Shown here in pieces: positions 5,679-59,900 of a stretch of DNA of 61,920 bases. This DNA is from a virus (taxonomy: Duplodnaviria; Caudoviricetes): IMG/VR virus record IMGVR_UViG_3300044833_000104, positions 1-61,920 of that record. One strand, written 5' to 3'. Below the pieces are notes generated by a model. It worked only from the letters and a program-made list of their open reading frames with translations. It had not been told where the DNA came from and ran no database searches. Made by a program: the position numbers and the translations under genes. Position 1 is the first letter of the stretch. The number at the start of each line of letters is the position of its first letter.

Positions 5679-5973
5679 CAACTGGGGCGGCATCTGTGGT
5701 GCAGGCTTCCTCATCGTTCTCTGTGCGGCGATCCTGTGGGCCTCAGAGCATGAGCCGCAGATACTTGCCCTCCTCGAACGTGTGACCAACATGCTCCCAC
5801 CCAAAGGGGACGACTATGACACCTTCTAACCTCGCCCTCGGGCTTATTGCCATCGGTGCCGTGATGGTGGCCCTCATCCTTGTCGGCCTCGCCTCCGTGG
5901 CGTTGGACATTGCCCGCGTGTTCCGCAGAAGGAAGGTCCGCTGATGAAGAGGAAACGCACGAAAGATGCCGTA

Positions 5974-6294
5974 ATGAGTGGGTTTACGCAAGGACCATGG
6001 CAGTTCAACCCTGAGCGCGGCGATATCACAGCGCCGAGCGTCCCGAAAGAGTCCTCCCGCTTAGGTCGCGGGGATGATCGTGACGAAATTTGGAATTACT
6101 ACGGGGGCGAGCTTGTGGCTGAGACGGTTTCGGCATGTGACGGGCCGCTGCTCACCGCCGCGCTGGAACTCTATCAAGCCCTGCGGGCTCTGCGCTCCTT
6201 CATGTGGGCTCAAGGGTACGCGGACCAAACAGCGGAAATGGCGCAAGCAGATGCGGCGATCGCGAAAGTTGAGGCCCGGAGTAAGGCGGGATAG
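5974..6294 (+). CDS. Hypothetical phage protein (xTPGPW...AAPEL-type small family)
   Basis: FTQGPW N-terminus, LLTAALELYQALR, ADAAIAKVE C-terminus; resembles 10785-11102. Confidence 0.65.
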   Translation: MSGFTQGPWQFNPERGDITAPSVPKESSRLGRGDDRDEIWNYYGGELVAETVSACDGPLLTAALELYQALRALRSFMWAQGYADQTAEMAQADAAIAKVEARSKAG

Positions 6295-6299
6295 ACATT

Positions 6300-6380
6300 G
6301 ACATGGCGCGGCATAGCTTGGCATGGCACGGCTGGGCGCGGTATGGCGTGACAAGGGTTCCCGCTCTCAGGAGCGGGGGC
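6300..6380 (+). ncRNA. GGY-NN pentamer array 1 plus 3' hairpin (candidate guide RNA)
   Basis: GACAT GGCGC GGCAT AGCTT GGCAT GGCAC GGCTG GGCGC GGTAT GGCGT GACAA GG, then GTTCCCGCTC-TCAG-GAGCGGGGGC. Confidence 0.75.
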
Positions 6381-6421
6381 AAAACAAAAACGAACAAGAC
6401 CAACAAAGGAGAAATCGCACA

Positions 6422-7036
6422 ATGTACAAAACTCTAAATCGCACACTAACTGGCATCTCACCGATTCTTTTACACAACGGTCGGCTGGCAAACCCGCTCG
6501 ACCCAATGTCGAAGGCAATGAAGGAAGTAAGCGCTAAAAAGAAAAAGACCGATGACGACCACAAACTGATGTCAGACATTGAGTGGCTCGGTTCAATCTA
6601 CACAGCGAGCGAAATCAACGTGACAATTCGCGGCTATAACGTTGCCGTCAAGTGCGACGGACCTGTCTGCATACCGGGCGACAACATCTCATCCATGCTC
6701 GCACTTGCAGGTGCAAAGTCGCGCCGGAAACAAGCATTCACGGCTGGCGTGTTGGTGGATGGCGATTTCCCCTTGCAATACTCCGGCCCCTCAACTCTCG
6801 CAGAGTTGTTTGCGAAGCCCGCATATCGATACATCAAGGGCTGCCGAATCGGCCAGTCGCGTGTCATGCGAACGCGGCCAATTTTCCGTTCGTGGAGTTT
6901 ACAAATTGCAATTCAGTATCTGTCGGATTTGTTGAATCCGAATGAGGTTGATGAAGCATTGACGCTTGCAGGCGCACAGATTGGCTTGTGTGACTATCGC
7001 CCGAGGTATGGACGGTTCTCGGTGCAAGCCGCATAA
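6422..7036 (+). CDS. Stand-alone RAMP/Cas7-like protein (Vipr-like), 204 aa
   Basis: AAGGAG RBS; RAMP-like motifs LTGISPILLH, VCIPGDNISSML, RTRPIFRSW and a C-terminal Gly-rich loop AGAQIGLCDYRPRYGRF; flanked by pentamer arrays. Confidence 0.75.
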   Translation: MYKTLNRTLTGISPILLHNGRLANPLDPMSKAMKEVSAKKKKTDDDHKLMSDIEWLGSIYTASEINVTIRGYNVAVKCDGPVCIPGDNISSMLALAGAKSRRKQAFTAGVLVDGDFPLQYSGPSTLAELFAKPAYRYIKGCRIGQSRVMRTRPIFRSWSLQIAIQYLSDLLNPNEVDEALTLAGAQIGLCDYRPRYGRFSVQAA

Positions 7037-7049
7037 AAAGCCTTTTCAG

Positions 7050-7170
7050 GGTGAGGCAGGGCAGGGCAAGGCGTGGTCCGGTTTGGCAGGGCGAGGTGCG
7101 GCGGGGTTAGGTATGGCAAGGGCTGTTGCATCTTCCGAGATGCCGTAAGTTCCCCGTCCGAAAGGGCGGG
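7050..7170 (+). ncRNA. GGY-NN pentamer array 2 plus two 3' hairpins (candidate guide RNA)
   Basis: 14 of 14 perfect GGY-NN units at 7050-7119, then GCATCT-TCCG-AGATGC and CCCGTCC-GAAA-GGGCGGG. Confidence 0.8.
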
Positions 7171-7190
7171 ACACATTAGAAGTTTTGTTG

Positions 7191-7287
7191 GGCAACGCAC
7201 GGCAGTGCAGGGCGTGGTTAGGCATGGATGGGCCCGGTCTGGTTCGGCTTGGTATGGCAAGGAGTTCGCATCCTCCGGGGCGCGAAC
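7191..7287 (+). ncRNA. GGY-NN pentamer array 3 plus 3' hairpin (candidate guide RNA)
   Basis: 14 units at 7191-7260 (11 perfect GGY), ending GGTAT GGCAA GG like array 2, then GTTCGCATCC-TCCG-GGGCGCGAAC. Confidence 0.8.
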
Positions 7288-7311
7288 AAAAATTCTAAGT
7301 AAGAGGTTTCG

Positions 7312-7758
7312 ATGCTTTCAAAATATCCGTTTGACTGGGAAGAGCTTCAAAAGGGCGACATACTAACTACCGAAGAATTGCAGCGAATCACCGGCAAGAC
7401 GCCGGGGTCAGATGAGTTTCGTTTCGCATGTATGACGTTGCAGTCGCTGATTCAAGACAAGACCGGCTTCACCGTCAAGTTGAAAGGCGACGAGACTTTG
7501 CAGGTTCTAACAGACGCGGAAGCAGCAGAGCATAATAGCCGCCTCTTCGGACAGTTCATGCGATCGATGGTGTCTCGTCATGCACTCAACTGCGAGGTTG
7601 ACGTGGACAATCTGAATCCAACGTCACGCGCGAAACATGATCGGACGCTAGTCACTCAGTCGCGCTACGTTTCCGCAATCGTACAAACGACCAAGGAAAT
7701 CAGGATAGCCAAGCGCGATGAAGTGCCGGGTATCGAATCGGAGACGGAGGCCCACTGA
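7312..7758 (+). CDS. Hypothetical protein, possible accessory of the RAMP/pentamer locus
   Basis: GAGGT RBS directly after array 3; wHTH-like N-terminal half. Confidence 0.6.
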   Translation: MLSKYPFDWEELQKGDILTTEELQRITGKTPGSDEFRFACMTLQSLIQDKTGFTVKLKGDETLQVLTDAEAAEHNSRLFGQFMRSMVSRHALNCEVDVDNLNPTSRAKHDRTLVTQSRYVSAIVQTTKEIRIAKRDEVPGIESETEAH

Positions 7759-8036
7759 TGGAAACCTCTCGCCGCATCCGCGAAGTCCATGAGCGCAGTC
7801 AGGAAGAAGTCGCCAGGCTGCTTGCCATCTCGCAGGCCCAGGTAGCGCGTGCAGAGCAGTCAGCTTTACGCAAGCTGCGCGCCAACCCCGAAGCGAAGCT
7901 GCTGATGCGGTATGTCTCCCAGCACCACACCGGCGGTACTTCTCCCTACGTGGAGCCAGCGCTCATGCGAAAGTTCGGCGCCGGTTGTGAAGATGCCAGC
8001 TTTCTTACTATCAGCGGTTTTGCACCCAATCTTTAA
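7758..8036 (+). CDS. Sigma70 region 4-like HTH protein
   Basis: RSQEEVARLLAISQAQVARAEQSALRKLR. Confidence 0.75.
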   Translation: METSRRIREVHERSQEEVARLLAISQAQVARAEQSALRKLRANPEAKLLMRYVSQHHTGGTSPYVEPALMRKFGAGCEDASFLTISGFAPNL

Positions 8037-8051
8037 AAGGAGAAACACACA

Positions 8052-8609
8052 ATGTTAATGACAGAAATTCGCAAGCAGTCCCTAGGCGTTATTGAGCAGG
8101 TCAACGATGGTATCGCCGACCTCGCACGACAGGCTGAGGAGATTCTTGGCTATGGCGTGCTTTCAAGAAACTTCGTCACAACCGCAATCGAACTCACCAC
8201 TCTGCAGACTGCGCTCAAGGAACTCGATATCGATGTGATGGTTCCCGGAGATGTTCAGCATTACCAGAAGGAGCGGCAGATCGAGCAGACCAAGGCCAAT
8301 TTTGAAGTTTGGCTGAAGGATTTCATGTCTTCCGGTACGGCAGGTCGCTACAACCGATTCGATGGCCCTGCTTGGGTCGAGGAGAAGATTGCCGAGTACA
8401 AGCAGCCCATCCCGGAGTTTGTGCTGGCGAAGGCCGTTCAGATAAAGCAGCGAGTTCCGGACTGTGAGATTTACGTGGAATACCTGTCCGATCATCCGGA
8501 CCCGTTCCTCATCATAGCGATCCCAGAAGGTCGGCCTTACTACCCCGCGAAAGAACGCTACCACGTTGAGGTTTGGGCAGAACCGAAGTTCGAAGGTCGT
8601 ATCCGCTAG
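8052..8609 (+). CDS. Hypothetical phage protein
   Basis: AAGGAG RBS; 185 aa; PIPEFVL, PDPFL and WAEPKF motifs. Confidence 0.7.
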   Translation: MLMTEIRKQSLGVIEQVNDGIADLARQAEEILGYGVLSRNFVTTAIELTTLQTALKELDIDVMVPGDVQHYQKERQIEQTKANFEVWLKDFMSSGTAGRYNRFDGPAWVEEKIAEYKQPIPEFVLAKAVQIKQRVPDCEIYVEYLSDHPDPFLIIAIPEGRPYYPAKERYHVEVWAEPKFEGRIR

Positions 8610-57020: not shown

Positions 57021-57667
57021 TACGCCGCCTCTTTCTTGAATCCCTCAGCCTTGCGCTTCGTGTACAGTTCCACCCACTTCCGCTCGATCTTCTCCCCAGC
57101 AACTGCACGGAAGGATTCCAACTCGTCCAACTCCTCCGGCGGCCGAGTCAGGTCCAACGCAGGATGCGCCCAAACTGCCTCGAGCCCGGCGCGCGCGCTT
57201 CCGTAGCCCATGTCGCACAGCGTCGCCATGACGAGGTCCGGGAAGACTGGAGGCTCCACAGGTGGGTTGCCGCGGTTGGTGAGCTTGCGGCCATGCCGGC
57301 GCTGCGCGATGATCAGCTTGCGGAACCACTCCCTGGCCTCGCATTCAAACTGCGGCTCTGAGGGTGCGCTGGCATACCGGCGAATCTCCGCGACGGTGGG
57401 GCGGAACGGCGAAGACTCCAGCACCTGCGTCAGAGCTGCATCGAAGCGCTCCTCACCGATCTCTGCCAACGTTTTGAGCCACAAGCTGAGCATGAGGTCT
57501 CTCGAAGAGGGATCGAGCGGTTGTGATTGGGTCAGCGCCTCCGCCATCGCTATCCGGCTGAGCATCCAGAGCTCGGTTGCGTCTGAGGGCGAGAGTTGCG
57601 TTTGTGCTGTCGGCGATATCCGCCGCTCGGTTCGGTTTTCCATTGCTGCCTCCGGGTTGATTTCCAA
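57020..57667 (-). CDS. Putative helicase loader / replication partner
   Basis: PFRPTVAEIRR; directly downstream of the initiator. Confidence 0.6.
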   Translation of the reverse strand: MEINPEAAMENRTERRISPTAQTQLSPSDATELWMLSRIAMAEALTQSQPLDPSSRDLMLSLWLKTLAEIGEERFDAALTQVLESSPFRPTVAEIRRYASAPSEPQFECEAREWFRKLIIAQRRHGRKLTNRGNPPVEPPVFPDLVMATLCDMGYGSARAGLEAVWAHPALDLTRPPEELDELESFRAVAGEKIERKWVELYTKRKAEGFKKEAA

Positions 57668-58454
57668 ACTTGTCAGTGCGGGCCGAGGCCCAATTCAAGG
57701 CGCGGCCCACCCATGCGCTCAACGGGTCCGAGTGCGAGACTGGACTGTTGGCGCGGTTATTCAAAAGCGTTTTCCATTGCTCGAGCGTGAACTTTGGGTT
57801 TTTCTTCAGAAATGCGCTGAGCCTTCCCGCCTCCTGGCCATCCCACGGCTCTTCGCTCAGAGTCGGGTTTTTGTGGAGAAAATACTTCCGGAACGCATCG
57901 CGGAACTCCTGATGCCGAGGATCAGGCACCTTCGCCGGCTTCTTCACTCGCTCGCCGACAGGCGGGTGAGAAGGTTTTTGCTCTTGGGGTTGTTGCTCTT
58001 CCACGAAAGCAGAAACAGAGACAGAAACAGAAGGCTTTATTTTCGTGGTGTTTGGCTTTTGTTTGGGTTCCGTTTCTAAACCCGTGGCTTTATTTTCAAA
58101 ACCCAACGCTTTTTTAGGACGTCCACCAAGCCTGCCATTGCCTGACTGTTTCGCGCTGAACTCAGCCTGCTTTTCAGCCTCGCGGATCATCCGAATGTTG
58201 GCGCGCAGACCGGACTCGACGATGGGGAATTTACCTAAAAGCATCTCGCGGCTGATAGCCCACTGCTCGGGGCTCATCCGTGCCCAGCGGCGTAGCTTGT
58301 TCTCGTCATCCGGCAAGTAACCGTGGCGGTCCTGCTGCCATGCGATGCACAGCAATAGCGTGTAGGCTCCCACCTCGTTCAAGTCCATCGACTGAACGTC
58401 TGGCGAAGCCATGAAATCACCTGGATAGAAACGAAAAGCCGGTGACTTACCCAT
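57453..58454 (-). CDS. Replication initiator, YdaU/DUF1376-like
   Basis: PAFRFYPGDF..EVGAYTLLL, NGRLGGRPKK; internal AT-rich repeats. Confidence 0.8.
   Translation of the reverse strand: MGKSPAFRFYPGDFMASPDVQSMDLNEVGAYTLLLCIAWQQDRHGYLPDDENKLRRWARMSPEQWAISREMLLGKFPIVESGLRANIRMIREAEKQAEFSAKQSGNGRLGGRPKKALGFENKATGLETEPKQKPNTTKIKPSVSVSVSAFVEEQQPQEQKPSHPPVGERVKKPAKVPDPRHQEFRDAFRKYFLHKNPTLSEEPWDGQEAGRLSAFLKKNPKFTLEQWKTLLNNRANSPVSHSDPLSAWVGRALNWASARTDKFGNQPGGSNGKPNRAADIADSTNATLALRRNRALDAQPDSDGGGADPITTARSLFERPHAQLVAQNVGRDR
58010..58115. other. Candidate replication origin inside the initiator gene
   Basis: AT-rich; GGCTTTATTTTC twice (58032, 58086) and CAGAAACAGA repeats. Confidence 0.4.
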
Positions 58455-58845
58455 CGACGTCCAACCCTTCCAAATCTTCTTCACCCATCAACATCTCCAT
58501 CGGCTCATCCATCGACACCCGCGGCGCTATCAGGAACCGTTGCGCGCCTGGAACCCGTGTGAACATCCCCCGAGCCTTCATGCCGCCGTCCATGACCGTC
58601 TGGGAGTTGCCGTAGACCATGGGCTTCAAGATCACCGATCGAGCGTCCGGGGTCATAGCCCGCAACCGGTCCTCGCCTCCAAGTCTCCGCAACCGGCGGA
58701 AGGGGATGCCGAGCTCTTCGGCGTAGAGGCGTGCGGAGCTAATTGCGGGGCCAACTCCTAAGCACTTCTTGCACCCACGCGTGGTTCTAGCGTCCATCAA
58801 GCCATCACAGTGGGGGCACTTTATCTTCTGGGAGGGGTGGGGCAT
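58447..58845 (-). CDS. Hypothetical zinc-finger protein
   Basis: CPHC..CKKC; TAATG-coupled. Confidence 0.55.
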   Translation of the reverse strand: MPHPSQKIKCPHCDGLMDARTTRGCKKCLGVGPAISSARLYAEELGIPFRRLRRLGGEDRLRAMTPDARSVILKPMVYGNSQTVMDGGMKARGMFTRVPGAQRFLIAPRVSMDEPMEMLMGEEDLEGLDVDG

Positions 58846-59900
58846 TAGGCGGGCACCTCGGCGAAATCTGAAGCTGTGAAGAAAAGGCCCTGCGCTGGCT
58901 TCAGGCATGCGGGGCTGAACCAGATGCGTTCACGCCCAGCATTCTCTCTGCCGGTTCCTTCGCCCTGTGAGCCATAGCCGCCGCGAGACTTCCACGCGAC
59001 ACACTCCCAGCTATCCGGCATGTCGTGCTCGCCGTCATAGCCGCACAGCGCAATGCGCAGATCCCGGTGGCTTCCGTTCTCTATCGCCCAGCGGCGGACC
59101 TCATGAGCGACGTCTGATGAGTCCGAGGCGTAGAGGTCATCCTGCCGCCCGGCGGTGTCGGCGTAAGGCGGATCGAGGAAGACACCCGTGATGCCATGCT
59201 TGAAAGTCACAGAAGGGCCGCAGATGCGTTCCCAGTTGCCACAGCACACTCGCACCTTGCGAAGTCTGTCGGCGAGCTGTTGCATGTAGGCCAAGAGAGG
59301 CGTTCCCGAGGTGCGGTCGCTTACGCATGCTTCCACGCCCGTGCCCGCGTCCCCGAGGTGAGGTAGCTGCCTGTTTACTCCTCGGCCCGCGTCCCCGAGG
59401 TGAGGTAGCTTACGGTGTACGCCCGTGCCCGCGTCCCCGAGGTGAGGTAGCTGCCTGTTTACTCCTCGGCCCGCGTCCCCGAGGTGAGGTAGCTGCACCG
59501 AGCACCATCCCGATCCAATCCATATGCACTGTCCCCATACCCACCAGCCTGCAATCTTCGCATCGTAAAACTCCGGTTCCACCTTCATTCGTTCGCGAAA
59601 CTCTTCCTGTCCGCAAAGCCATAAATGCCGCGCGTGCTGATCCGCCTCGTTCACTGGGCTATCGGCATACTCCGCGACTGCCTCGGGGTCATGCTGCAGC
59701 GCCCTCCAAAAGTTGGCCACCATGCAATCCAAGTCGTTGACGGTCTCTATGCCGCGTTGGCTCTCGCGTCCCAACAGCACCGCGCCAGAGCCAAAGAAGG
59801 GCTCGACGTAATTGGGAACGTCACCAAGGCGCGACCAAACAAGATCGCTGACGCGAGATTTTCCTCCGAACCAAGGAAACGGGGCCTTGAGAAGGCTCAC
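58845..59900 (-). CDS. DNA adenine methyltransferase (Dam/D12 class)
   Basis: PFPWFGGKS, YVEPFFGSGAV, ETVNDLD, FLDPPY. Confidence 0.92.
   Translation of the reverse strand: MSLLKAPFPWFGGKSRVSDLVWSRLGDVPNYVEPFFGSGAVLLGRESQRGIETVNDLDCMVANFWRALQHDPEAVAEYADSPVNEADQHARHLWLCGQEEFRERMKVEPEFYDAKIAGWWVWGQCIWIGSGWCSVQLPHLGDAGRGVNRQLPHLGDAGTGVHRKLPHLGDAGRGVNRQLPHLGDAGTGVEACVSDRTSGTPLLAYMQQLADRLRKVRVCCGNWERICGPSVTFKHGITGVFLDPPYADTAGRQDDLYASDSSDVAHEVRRWAIENGSHRDLRIALCGYDGEHDMPDSWECVAWKSRGGYGSQGEGTGRENAGRERIWFSPACLKPAQGLFFTASDFAEVPA
59335..59495. repeat. In-frame tandem repeat, 4 x 42 bp (2 x 84 bp), within the MTase
   Basis: QLPHLGDAGRGVNR / QLPHLGDAGTGVHR / KLPHLGDAGRGVNR / QLPHLGDAGTGVE. Confidence 0.95.

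What the first reader, a model, noticed from the sequence alone, without database searches (positions are those of the whole stretch)
6300..7758. Candidate RNA-guided system: lone RAMP/Cas7-like gene flanked by three GGY-NN pentamer arrays
Seen: three non-coding tracts with strict 5-nt phase, a near-constant GGY triplet and a variable dinucleotide (11, 14 and 14 units at 6300-6354, 7050-7119 and 7191-7260). Each ends in AAGG plus a stem-loop. They bracket a 204-aa gene with RAMP-like motifs (SPILLH, IPGDNI, terminal Gly-rich loop). There is no CRISPR array, cas1, cas5, cas6 or nuclease. Established: Cas7 RAMPs polymerise on guide RNA with a fixed nucleotide period. Inference: each tract is a separate small RNA, one subunit grips each GGY and displays NN, so the dinucleotides together spell a gapped target, probably for nuclease-free silencing of competing phages or host genes. 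This matches my unverified recollection of recently reported phage VIPR systems, so it may be a new member rather than wholly undescribed.
Basis: partly seen in the sequence, partly recalled or inferred. Interest (0 to 1): 0.95.

Follow-up and report, generated by a model that had tools for sequence, protein, structure and literature searches.

The report
Phage VIPR RNA-guided silencing locus
This phage carries a VIPR system, a recently described CRISPR-like relative in which a small protein lines up along repeat RNAs to recognise and silence rival DNA; it is a new example of a known kind, not a new kind.

Summary
Three arrays of GGYNN pentamers in strict 5-nt phase (11, 14 and 14 units, + strand) lie around a 204-aa gene, and no shuffle of the window comes close to them.

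VIPR systems are described in three 2026 bioRxiv preprints. The 204-aa protein is a full-length homologue of the tested SUSP1 Vipr (33% identity, E 2e-35; PDB 'SUSP1 Vipr protein', E 4.6e-26). It folds as a RAMP and keeps the published GGY-contact residues.

In 123 of 160 homologous loci, GGYNN arrays sit beside the gene on its own strand, with variable NN. The gene is not 'lone': the 148-aa gene downstream (7312-7758) is a remote homologue of SUSP1 vap1. Each array ends in a hairpin whose stem changes by paired substitutions.

The window is a complete 61.9-kb tailed-phage genome with no Cas1, Cas5 or Cas6 match.

Targets are unsettled. vrRNA2 matches (22/24 over 12 units, 23/28 overall, 1-nt skip) the first codons of a small zinc-finger gene in phage contigs that share tail proteins with this phage. 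That score is not significant on its own.

No RNA data could be obtained.

Verdict: a new member of a known kind, most likely type II.

The parts
6300..6354 (+). vrRNA1 repeat tract, 11 GGYNN units (3 degenerate: GAC, AGC, GAC); NN = AT GC AT TT AT AC TG GC AT GT AA
6357..6380 (+). vrRNA1 3' tail hairpin (10 bp stem, 4-nt loop)
   Evidence: MFE fold, z -4.0 for the whole vrRNA; covariation with 6 other tails
6422..7036 (+). vipr gene, 204 aa (P0001); AAGGAG about 12 nt upstream of the ATG
   Evidence: 33% identity, E 2e-35 to SUSP1 Vipr YP_009199429.1; PDB 36pp 'SUSP1 Vipr protein' E 4.6e-26; phrog_4652 E 3.4e-45; RAMP fold, pLDDT 95.7, VIA Z 10.0-8.1 and Foldseek E 1.7e-4 to Csm3/Cmr4/Cas7-11
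7050..7119 (+). vrRNA2 repeat tract, 14 of 14 GGYNN units; NN = GA AG AG AA GT CC TT AG GA GC GG TA AT AA
7128..7143 (+). vrRNA2 3' tail hairpin (GCAUCU-UCCG-AGAUGC). The MFE fold of the naked RNA does not use it; it is seen by eye and through the alignment.
7153..7170 (+). second hairpin (7 bp, GAAA loop) between vrRNA2 and vrRNA3; role unknown
7191..7260 (+). vrRNA3 repeat tract, 14 units (first four partly degenerate, one GGA); NN = AA AC AG AG GT TA AT TG CC CT TC TT AT AA
7264..7287 (+). vrRNA3 3' tail hairpin
7312..7758 (+). vap1-family accessory gene, 148 aa (P0121): N-terminal helix/strand domain plus a long helical hairpin

Best explanation
This is a VIPR (Viral Interference Programmable Repeat) locus, most likely type II. 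It sits in the early region of a complete 61.9-kb tailed phage and comprises vrRNA1, vipr, vrRNA2, vrRNA3 and a vap1-family gene.

By homology with the SUSP1 system, the mechanism is as follows. Vipr protomers bind one per pentamer along each vrRNA and form a helical filament. Neighbouring protomers sequester each GGY through conserved His, Arg, Asp, aromatic and Arg residues. The NN dinucleotides are left exposed. Together the NN pair with double-stranded DNA read as NNx, so one base in three is skipped, often the codon wobble base. The bound filament blocks transcription without cutting. The 3' hairpin caps the RNA. Vap1, a putative DNA-binding protein, assists.

The likely purpose is to silence a competing phage or satellite in the same host.

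Shown here: the arrays, the homology, the fold, the conserved contact residues, the co-occurrence of arrays with the gene, the tail covariation and the vap1 link.

Inferred: expression of the RNAs, filament formation, DNA targeting and silencing in this phage.

Only a candidate: vrRNA2 may target the start of a small C2HC zinc-finger gene in a distantly related phage.
For: Literature. VIPR is defined as a Vipr RAMP plus vrRNAs of 9-16 GGY/NN repeats with a structured 3' tail plus a vap gene. It is mostly phage-borne. It follows a 1-nt-skip dsDNA rule and represses transcription (paper 1, Results and methods sections 18, 20, 26 and 27). Vipr forms a filament with one protomer per repeat, and the contact residues are named (paper 3, sections 5-6).

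Vipr protein. P0001 is 33% identical to SUSP1 Vipr over its full length, E 2e-35. That protein is YP_009199429.1. The PDB chain 'SUSP1 Vipr protein' matches at E 4.6e-26, and at 2.6e-53 with the A1 profile.

Contact residues. SUSP1 H17, K33, R138, D177 and R179 align to identical H18, K34, R152, D191 and R193. W178 aligns to Y192 (alignments; residues). H18 and R152 are invariant and K34 and R193 are at least 90% conserved among 56 homologues.

Fold. The model has pLDDT 95.7. The top 18 VIA rows are all CRISPR RAMPs, Z 10.0-7.9. Foldseek gives E 1.7e-4 to Csm3, probability 0.99-1.0.

Arrays in homologous loci. 123 of 160 loci have at least one array on the vipr strand within -1 kb/+2 kb. That is 266 arrays in 438 kb near the gene, against 3 elsewhere on that strand and 2 on the other strand in 628 kb. 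Entropy at N4 and N5 is 1.94 and 1.99 bits over 3,155 units.

Closest relative. L004 (66% identical Vipr, a 61.6-kb phage) has the same layout with different NN.

Tails. 7 tails share a 10-pair helix. 85.7% of cells are paired against 74.2% in shuffles (0 of 500 reach it). 6 pairs carry double changes (3 of 500). Slid controls give 31-51%.

vap1.

Genome context. The record is a complete phage with direct terminal repeats. It encodes terminase, portal, major head protein and DnaB, and ERF and YqaJ. It has no Cas1, Cas6 or Cas5d match. There is no self-target: the best is 19/28, no better than under the other skip rules.
Against: No RNA evidence.

No sigma-70-type promoter or intrinsic terminator was found on the + strand near the arrays.

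The MFE fold of naked vrRNA2 does not use its tail hairpin, and whole-vrRNA z-scores are unremarkable except for vrRNA1.

The tail is a plain hairpin, not the pseudoknot reported for the SUSP1 clade.

The tail covariation rests on only 7 related sequences from 2 phages.

The vap1 link is remote: BLASTP finds nothing, and hhalign against the single SUSP1 sequence gives probability 12.8%, E 0.0022.

No statistically secure target was found:
- Exact 20-24-base patterns gave 0 hits in viral contigs.
- The full vrRNA2 pattern with up to 3 mismatches gave 0 of 4 records and 0 of 401 genomes of one phylum.
- All three guides gave 0 of 5 related phage records.
- The one candidate scores 23/28, a score expected by chance many times in a collection of that size.

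Six of the 39 units are not GGY.

The type II assignment could not be checked against the paper's classification tables, because supplements are closed.
Confidence: 0.9

Rival explanations
1. The locus is a VIPR by descent but no longer a working DNA-targeting system. The arrays would be decaying remnants, or would serve as decoys or sponges that titrate the Vipr of rival phages. This would resemble the solo vrRNAs of satellites and VIPR-null phages described in paper 2.
For: 6 of 39 units are degenerate, mostly in vrRNA1 and at the 5' end of vrRNA3. No secure target was found. Paper 2 reports decoy and solo vrRNAs (abstract and passages).
Against: vipr and vap1 are intact, each has a Shine-Dalgarno-like sequence, and the contact residues are conserved. 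vrRNA2 is 14/14 perfect. Paper 1 notes that internal degeneracy is common in working vrRNAs. Failure to find targets is expected for a phage from a poorly sampled environment.
Confidence: 0.06
2. The tracts are binding sites for an oligomeric RNA-binding regulator, in the manner of TRAP (11 triplets with 2-3-nt spacers) or CsrA sponges. On this reading they regulate the phage's own translation or transcription rather than guiding the protein to DNA.
For: A conserved triplet with a 2-nt spacer and 11 or 14 repeats resembles the TRAP site layout (recalled from general knowledge, not from a call). The tracts flank the gene that would bind them.
Against: The protein has a RAMP fold, not a TRAP or CsrA fold. 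It is a homologue of a protein shown to guide DNA binding (papers 1 and 3). The NN positions are close to maximal entropy across loci, which suits a variable guide rather than a spacer.
Confidence: 0.02
3. It is a minimal or degenerate CRISPR-Cas (class 1) remnant, that is, a lone Cas7.
For: The best structural matches are Csm3, Cmr4 and Cas7-11.
Against: There is no repeat-spacer array. There is no Cas1, Cas6 or Cas5d match in the genome. PADLOC and NCBIfam give nothing for the protein. The period is 5 nt rather than 6 nt. Sequence identity to the Cas7 proteins is only 10-18%.
Confidence: 0.01
4. The pentamer tracts are chance or structural DNA repeats with no RNA role, for example G-rich slippage products or two-tetrad G-quadruplex-forming DNA.
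For: GG every 5 nt could in principle form G-quadruplexes (general knowledge, not tested).
Against: The arrays are strand-specific and tied to vipr in 123 of 160 loci from many phyla. Each array is followed by a covarying hairpin. The phase scores are far above those of the shuffles.
Confidence: 0.01

Closest known systems
Escherichia phage SUSP1 VIPR (type II; Vipr YP_009199429.1, vap1, four vrRNAs)
   Same: - Vipr of about 200 aa, 33% identical over its full length, with the same GGY-contact residues
- GGYNN arrays of 11-14 units on the gene's strand, upstream and downstream
- a GGUAUGG motif at the repeat-tail junction in several vrRNAs of both phages
- a vap1-family gene of about 146-148 aa
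- phage-borne, with no cas genes
   Different: - Here two vrRNAs lie between vipr and vap1. In SUSP1 the three downstream vrRNAs follow vap1. The window's layout (arrays upstream and between the genes only) occurs in 7 of 63 vap1-bearing loci.
- The tail is a simple GC-rich hairpin rather than the pseudoknot tail reported for the SUSP1 clade (paper 1).
- There are three vrRNAs rather than four.
- The host is unknown and environmental (57% GC). The nearest relative was binned with a Pyrinomonadaceae MAG.
- The targets are not established.
Pseudomonas prophage VIPRs (the P. fulva clade of paper 1; here Pseudomonas phage vB_Pae_LESphi2 P21_9 and P21_8)
   Same: It has the best identity to P0001 among named phage records, 37.6%. 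The gene downstream of its vipr joins the same vap1 family (iterations 2-5). It lies next to the cI/cro early region.
   Different: In LESphi2 vap follows vipr directly. I did not examine its arrays in detail, and I did not verify whether it belongs to the paper's P. fulva clade.
CRISPR-Cas class 1 backbone RAMPs (Csm3, Cmr4, Cas7, Cas7-11 domains)
   Same: RRM core, G-rich loop and thumb hairpin. Best structural neighbours: VIA Z up to 10.0 with rmsd 3.6 A over 136 residues, and Foldseek E 1.7e-4. Both polymerise along a guide RNA with periodic base flipping (paper 3).
   Different: - Period of 5 nt with three guide bases sequestered, against 6 nt with one base flipped
- The guide is encoded as repeats and is not acquired as spacers
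- No Cas1, Cas5 or Cas6
- 10-18% sequence identity
TRAP-type repeat-triplet RNA binding (Bacillus trp RNA-binding attenuation protein)
   Same: A conserved triplet separated by short variable spacers, with one protein subunit per repeat (recalled from general knowledge).
   Different: The fold is unrelated. In TRAP the spacers carry no information and the RNA is the regulated target, not a guide.

Membership tests
VIPR system | Vipr protein homologous to the experimentally characterised Vipr (SUSP1 YP_009199429.1) | tested here: met
   BLASTP 33% identity, E 2e-35, residues 3-202 of 204. phmmer against PDB 36pp 'SUSP1 Vipr protein' gives E 4.6e-26; the A1 profile gives 2.6e-53. The accession is tied to the gene.
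VIPR system | RAMP fold with RRM core, glycine-rich loop and thumb, without a second RRM | tested here: met
   AlphaFold model pLDDT 95.7. The top 18 VIA rows are CRISPR RAMPs, Z 10.0-7.9. Foldseek gives probability 0.99-1.0. G184, G188 and G197 are conserved near the C-terminus, and the beta-hairpin 136-155 carries the invariant R150 and R152. I assigned the thumb and G-loop through the alignment to SUSP1, not by inspecting a complex.
VIPR system | Residues that read GGY and the skipped base (SUSP1 H17, R138, D177, W178, R179, K33) | tested here: met
   They align to H18, R152, D191, Y192 (aromatic kept), R193 and K34 (alignments; residue list from paper 3 section 5-6). The helix-1 pocket residues E71 and M72 fall in a gapped part of the alignment and probably correspond to D87 and N88; I placed these by eye.
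VIPR system | vrRNA tracts: at least 4 (typically 9-16) GGYNN units, conserved GGY, hypervariable NN, on the vipr strand in the flanking intergenic DNA | tested here: met
   11, 14 and 14 units; 33 of 39 are GGY; NN entropy 1.75 and 1.96 bits. 123 of 160 homologous loci have the same.
VIPR system | Conserved structured 3' tail directly after the repeats | tested here: met
   A hairpin follows each of 7 vrRNAs (3 in the window, 4 in L004). It has 10 pairs, 6 of them with compensatory changes, and 85.7% of cells are paired against 31-51% in slid controls. It is a hairpin, not the SUSP1-clade pseudoknot. The sample is small.
VIPR system | Adjacent vipr-accessory (vap) gene | tested here: met
   The 148-aa gene is found downstream of vipr in 28 of 160 loci by tblastn. 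Its HMM reaches SUSP1 agp038 (vap1) at E 5.4e-4 before any SUSP1 sequence was added. Pairwise tests are weak, so the homology is remote.
VIPR system | vrRNAs are expressed as discrete small RNAs and co-purify with Vipr | not testable with these tools
VIPR system | Guides match natural dsDNA targets under the 1-nt-skip rule (at least 80% NN match) and not the phage's own genome | tested here: inconclusive
   The best self match is 19/28, no better than under the other skip rules. There is one candidate, vrRNA2 against the start of a 67-aa gene in phage contigs, at 23/28 (82%), or 22/24 over units 1-12. That score is not significant in collections of this size, and vrRNA1 and vrRNA3 gave nothing convincing.
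VIPR type II | Vipr clade of SUSP1 and P. fulva, vap1 accessory gene, tandem (non-staggered, ribozyme-free) vrRNA arrays | tested here: inconclusive
   In favour: direct similarity to SUSP1 Vipr, a vap1-family gene, no Rfam ribozyme match in 5800-8200, and separate non-overlapping arrays. The paper's phylogeny and type tables are in supplements I could not open, and I built no tree.
CRISPR-Cas class 1 | Repeat-spacer array plus cas genes (Cas1, Cas5, Cas6 and others) | tested here: not met
   No such array in the TRF output. No Cas1, Cas6_C or Cas5d match in the whole 61.9-kb genome, with positive controls. No PADLOC or NCBIfam match for P0001.

The most novel reading that the evidence does not exclude
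This clade may be a natural case of VIPR-mediated conflict between phages outside Enterobacteria and Pseudomonas.

On this reading, vrRNA2 of this environmental phage (possibly Acidobacteria-associated) silences a promoter-proximal small C2HC zinc-finger gene. That gene sits antisense between the tape-measure and distal-tail genes of a rival phage lineage that shares tail proteins with this phage, and so probably shares its host. Because of the wobble-skipping code, one guide would cover all five allele variants seen.

If true, the clade also shows a distinct vrRNA design: a plain hairpin cap and guides placed between vipr and vap1. The conserved last two units (GGUAU GGCAA) would then act as part of the handle rather than as guide.
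Probability: 0.3. Interest if true: 0.5.

Novelty: new member of a known kind. Interest (0 to 1): 0.35.

Why it matters
VIPR was first described in 2026 and has been characterised in only a few Enterobacteria and Pseudomonas phage systems. This locus adds a complete, well-preserved example from an uncultivated 61.9-kb phage.

It shows three things. The GGY-reading residues are kept at 33% identity. The 3' cap can be a simple covarying hairpin. The vrRNAs can sit between vipr and vap1.

It also offers a concrete and testable guide-target pair in a related phage.

The specific locus and its relatives may be useful for comparative work on how tails and accessory proteins co-vary, and for enlarging the set of programmable, nuclease-free DNA binders. 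It does not open a new category.

Tried and rejected
Family and RNA libraries
- Pfam gave nothing for P0001 or P0121 above the cut-off.
- PADLOC and NCBIfam gave nothing for either protein.
- Rfam gave no match in 5800-8200 at E up to 1.

vap1 by pairwise methods
- BLASTP found no alignment.
- hhalign against the single SUSP1 sequence gave probability 12.8%, and against LESphi2 P21_8 1.2%. Only the profile search made the link.
- The PDB fold search for the vap model matched only its helical hairpin, at non-specific Z below 8. The PDB sequence search gave nothing, E 0.24.

Promoters and terminators
- None was found on the + strand near the arrays.

Target searches that found nothing
- Exact NNx patterns in viral contigs: vrRNA2 units 1-12, vrRNA2 units 3-12 and vrRNA3 units 3-12, and the vrRNA3 18-base seed.
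- Full vrRNA2 pattern with up to 3 mismatches: the L004 phage genome plus 3 Acidobacteria MAGs, and 401 genomes of the phylum of one of those MAGs.
- All three guides with up to 3 mismatches in 5 related phage records.
- Window guides against 1.22 Mb of VIPR loci, and 221 foreign guides against the window. Skip-1 was no better than skip 0, 2 or 3 (17 against 14, 18 and 16 guides at 80% or more).
- Window and L004 guides against 126 kb of close relatives.
- vrRNA1, vrRNA3 and L004 guides do not converge on the candidate-target contigs.

Other target results
- The vrRNA1 seed gave one hit at 20/22 in an unrelated contig of 47% GC, with the skip base not at wobble in the open + frame. I treat it as chance.
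- The other 5 of the 10 metagenome seed hits for vrRNA2 scored 19-22/28 and are unrelated to one another.
- The 67-aa candidate target has no informative Pfam or Atlas match. One of its 12 homologues carries PF13913.

Readings considered and dropped
- Coding periodicity: a 5-nt period cannot be a reading frame.
- TRAP-like binding site, CRISPR remnant and G-quadruplex DNA: see the rival explanations.
Full report
OBSERVATION

- 6300-6354 reads GACAT GGCGC GGCAT AGCTT GGCAT GGCAC GGCTG GGCGC GGTAT GGCGT GACAA.
- 7050-7119 is fourteen perfect GGYNN units.
- 7191-7260 is fourteen units, of which the first four are partly degenerate.

I scored runs of GGY in 5-nt phase (+1 for a hit, -1.5 for a miss). 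The three tracts score 14, 7.5 and 6.5, all on the + strand. Nothing else in the 61,920-bp window reaches 4 on either strand. One hundred first-order Markov simulations of the window gave a mean maximum of 3.2 and never more than 5.

Of the 39 units, 33 are GGY. The entropy of the five positions is 0.51, 0.29, 1.02, 1.75 and 1.96 bits, and 14 of the 16 dinucleotides occur at NN. Each tract ends in CAAGG followed by a hairpin. Tandem Repeats Finder did not report the tracts, because the units are too divergent.

WHAT IS KNOWN

Paper 1 is bioRxiv 10.64898/2026.04.26.720920. I read the whole Results, methods sections 18, 20, 26 and 27, and passages.
- It defines Viral Interference Programmable Repeat systems as a minimal RAMP (Vipr), vrRNAs of 9-16 GGY/NN repeats with a structured 3' tail, and a vap accessory gene.
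- The systems are mostly in phages and prophages.
- The NN dinucleotides pair with dsDNA while skipping one target base per repeat, and binding represses transcription.

Paper 3 is 10.64898/2026.04.26.720927. I read the abstract and sections 5-6.
- It reports filaments with one protomer per repeat.
- It names the residues that hold G1 (H17, D177), G2 (R138, W178), Y3 (E71, M72, R179 and others) and the skipped-base region (K33).

Paper 2 is 10.64898/2026.10.15.759431. I read the abstract and passages.
- It shows that SUSP1 needs vipr and vap1 to grow on satellite-bearing hosts.
- It gives the Vipr accession, YP_009199429.1.

THE PROTEIN

The ORF at 6422-7036 (P0001, 204 aa) has no Pfam, PADLOC or NCBIfam match. 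It matches phrog_4652, of unknown function, at E 3.4e-45.

In the SUSP1 record, YP_009199429.1 is AVU07_agp039. It lies between two long intergenic regions full of GGTNN-type repeats. P0001 aligns to it over residues 3-202 at 33% identity, E 2e-35. The PDB sequence file holds 'SUSP1 Vipr protein' (36pp, six chains). P0001 matches it at E 4.6e-26, and a 56-sequence profile matches at E 2.6e-53.

Through these alignments, SUSP1 H17, K33, R138, D177 and R179 correspond to identical H18, K34, R152, D191 and R193. W178 corresponds to Y192. H18 and R152 are invariant, and K34 and R193 are at least 90% conserved, among 56 homologues.

An AlphaFold model built on that alignment has mean pLDDT 95.7. 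Its best PDB neighbours are all CRISPR RAMPs: Csm3, Cmr4, Cas7-11 domains, and type IV and type VII Cas7. VIA-align gives Z 10.0 to 7.9 for the first 18 rows, and Foldseek gives E down to 1.7e-4 at probability 0.99-1.0. SPILLH contains the G1-binding His. IPGDNI begins helix 1 of the RRM. The C-terminal G-rich loop carries D191, Y192 and R193.

RELATED LOCI

The family is large: 305 proteins at E up to 0.001 in the word-indexed search and 131 phage records. I fetched 80 viral loci and 80 genome loci spread over many phyla.

In 123 of these 160 loci, at least one GGYNN array (score 5 or more) lies on the vipr strand within 1 kb upstream or 2 kb downstream. That is 266 arrays in 438 kb. Elsewhere there are 3 on that strand and 2 on the opposite strand, in 628 kb. 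The 37 loci without a call include short contigs and perhaps systems with other repeat consensus.

Across 3,155 units, N4 and N5 have entropy 1.94 and 1.99 bits. Positions 1-3 are biased by the way the arrays were called.

The closest relative is L004, a 61.6-kb phage with terminal repeats whose Vipr is 66% identical. It has one array upstream and three downstream, then a homologue of the 148-aa gene. Its NN are different, apart from a short shared stretch in the upstream array.

TAILS

The seven vrRNAs of the window and L004 all carry a GC-rich hairpin that starts one to eight bases after the last GG.

On their alignment, a 10-pair helix has 85.7% of cells paired, against 74.2% in shuffles (0 of 500 as high). 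Six pairs have changes on both sides (3 of 500). Versions with the 3' partner slid by 1-3 columns give 31-51%.

Seven sequences from two related phages is a small sample, and I derived the structure from these same sequences.

For vrRNA2, the naked-RNA MFE fold prefers another pairing. A second hairpin follows at 7153-7170. The tail is not the pseudoknot described for the SUSP1 clade.

THE ACCESSORY GENE

The 148-aa ORF at 7312-7758 has no library match and no BLASTP similarity to SUSP1 agp038, the gene next to vipr. However:
- tblastn finds it directly downstream of vipr in 28 of the 160 loci.
- An HMM of 28 such sequences (A2) was searched against 5,997 ORFs from all the loci. The search converged on one ORF in each of 66 sources, all on the vipr strand.
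- hhalign against the single SUSP1 sequence is colinear but weak, at probability 12.8%.
- The model (pLDDT 90) has a small N-terminal helix/strand domain and a long helical hairpin.
- In BFVD it matches uncharacterised phage proteins, including a 146-aa protein of Escherichia phage adrianh (E 4.7e-4). That phage encodes a vap1 98.6% identical to SUSP1's. That the two adrianh proteins are the same is inferred from length only.

I therefore call it a vap1-family gene, remote but supported. So the RAMP is not 'lone'.

Among 63 vap1-bearing loci, arrays lie between vipr and vap in 18. The window's layout (arrays upstream and between the genes only) occurs in 7.

CONTEXT

The window is a whole IMG/VR virus record with direct terminal repeats, 100% complete by CheckV. 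It encodes:
- terminase, portal, major head protein and a DnaB-like helicase
- a tape-measure-sized protein and tail proteins
- ERF and YqaJ recombination proteins just downstream of the locus

It has no tRNA gene and no Cas1, Cas6 or Cas5d match.

Among five phage records that share its 1,077-aa tail protein, only one has any Vipr-like match, and that one is weak. One 98%-complete relative has none. The module is therefore accessory.

TARGETS

Following paper 1, I replaced each GGY by one wildcard.
- No guide matches the phage's own genome. The best is 19/28, and other skip rules do as well.
- Exact 20- and 24-base patterns found nothing in viral contigs.
- The full vrRNA2 pattern with up to 3 mismatches found nothing in L004's genome, in three Acidobacteria MAGs, or in 401 genomes of that phylum.

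An 18-base seed (vrRNA2 units 4-12) gave 10 metagenome hits and 2 viral hits. Seven of these 12 are one gene family, which I call 'family A'.
- It is a 67-aa ORF starting MG[RK]KKVPLSEAGY.
- It lies antisense between the tape-measure and distal-tail genes of phage contigs.
- The match starts at codon 2.
- The NN fall on codon positions 1-2 and the skipped base on wobble.
- A TACAAT lies 7 nt before the ATG.

The whole guide matches 23/28, and units 1-12 match 22/24. The last two units, which vrRNA2 and vrRNA3 share, do not match any of 11 protein variants.

These contigs share three tail proteins with the window phage, at 29-56% identity. The window itself lacks the small gene.

Against this reading:
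- By a binomial estimate of mine, a score of 23/28 is expected by chance many times in collections this large.
- The seven hits are one evolutionary event.
- The supporting features were noticed after the fact.
- vrRNA1, vrRNA3 and L004's guides do not converge on these contigs.

The vrRNA3 seed found nothing, and the vrRNA1 seed found one unrelated contig at 20/22. I rate this target a candidate, at about 0.3.

LIMITS

- No expression data could be had.
- No complex prediction was possible.
- Closer relatives could not be fetched.
- Earlier findings of the scan were not open.
- The supplements of the papers, which hold the type tables and the locus lists, were closed, so I cannot say whether this locus or L004 is already in their set.

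VERDICT

The locus is a new member of the published VIPR kind, most likely type II. It has a hairpin rather than a pseudoknot tail, and its vrRNAs lie between vipr and vap1. It is a clean, complete example with a testable candidate target, but it is not a new category.

- Interest: 0.35
- Confidence in the VIPR assignment: 0.9

Noticed in passing
window 59343-59496: Tandem repeat of a 42-bp unit, 3.7 copies (also scored as an 84-bp period, 1.9 copies, 100% match). It lies close to a primosomal-protein-like gene at 57453-58484 (-). It may be an iteron or origin region.
   Followed up: no
window 7758-8036 (+): A 92-aa gene whose ATG overlaps the vap1 stop. It shows weak sigma-70 region 4 / HTH similarity (Pfam E 3.1e-5, just under the cut-off; NCBIfam SigB/F/G E 1.8e-5). 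The LESphi2 locus has an annotated 'sigma factor' gene just upstream of its vipr. tblastn found no homologue in the 160 loci.
   Followed up: partly
L184:1102-1836 (record G406, a 62.5-kb phage with terminal repeats whose tail protein is 66% identical to the window's): A diverged Vipr-like ORF (E 7e-8 to P0001 residues 99-201; C-terminal GRFRPRNNGFYGRF). No GGYNN array scoring 4 or more lies within about 1.5 kb. It may be another VIPR type with a different repeat consensus. A 98%-complete sister phage (G405) has no Vipr at all.
   Followed up: partly
L174:5686-5889 (-), L169:6790-6993 (-) and five other loci: A conserved 67-aa C2HC zinc-finger-like ORF. It is inserted antisense between the tape-measure and distal-tail genes of phage contigs, with a TACAAT 7 nt upstream of its ATG. 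It looks like a moron-type insertion, and it is the candidate target of vrRNA2.
   Followed up: partly
window 7153-7170: An extra 7-bp hairpin with a GAAA loop between the vrRNA2 tail and vrRNA3. It is followed some bases later by a short U-rich run. It may mark a processing or termination site.
   Followed up: no
L073:4759-4913, L048:1798-2083, L021:2584-2678: Some homologous loci carry very long GGYNN runs (19-31 units) or runs set back to back. These may be the 'staggered' or fused arrays mentioned in paper 1.
   Followed up: no
window 6300-7260 compared with L001 27600-29260: The motif GGUAUGG recurs at or near the repeat-tail junction. It is seen in all three window vrRNAs and in three of the four SUSP1 vrRNAs, although the proteins are only 33% identical. 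It may be part of a conserved handle.
   Followed up: no
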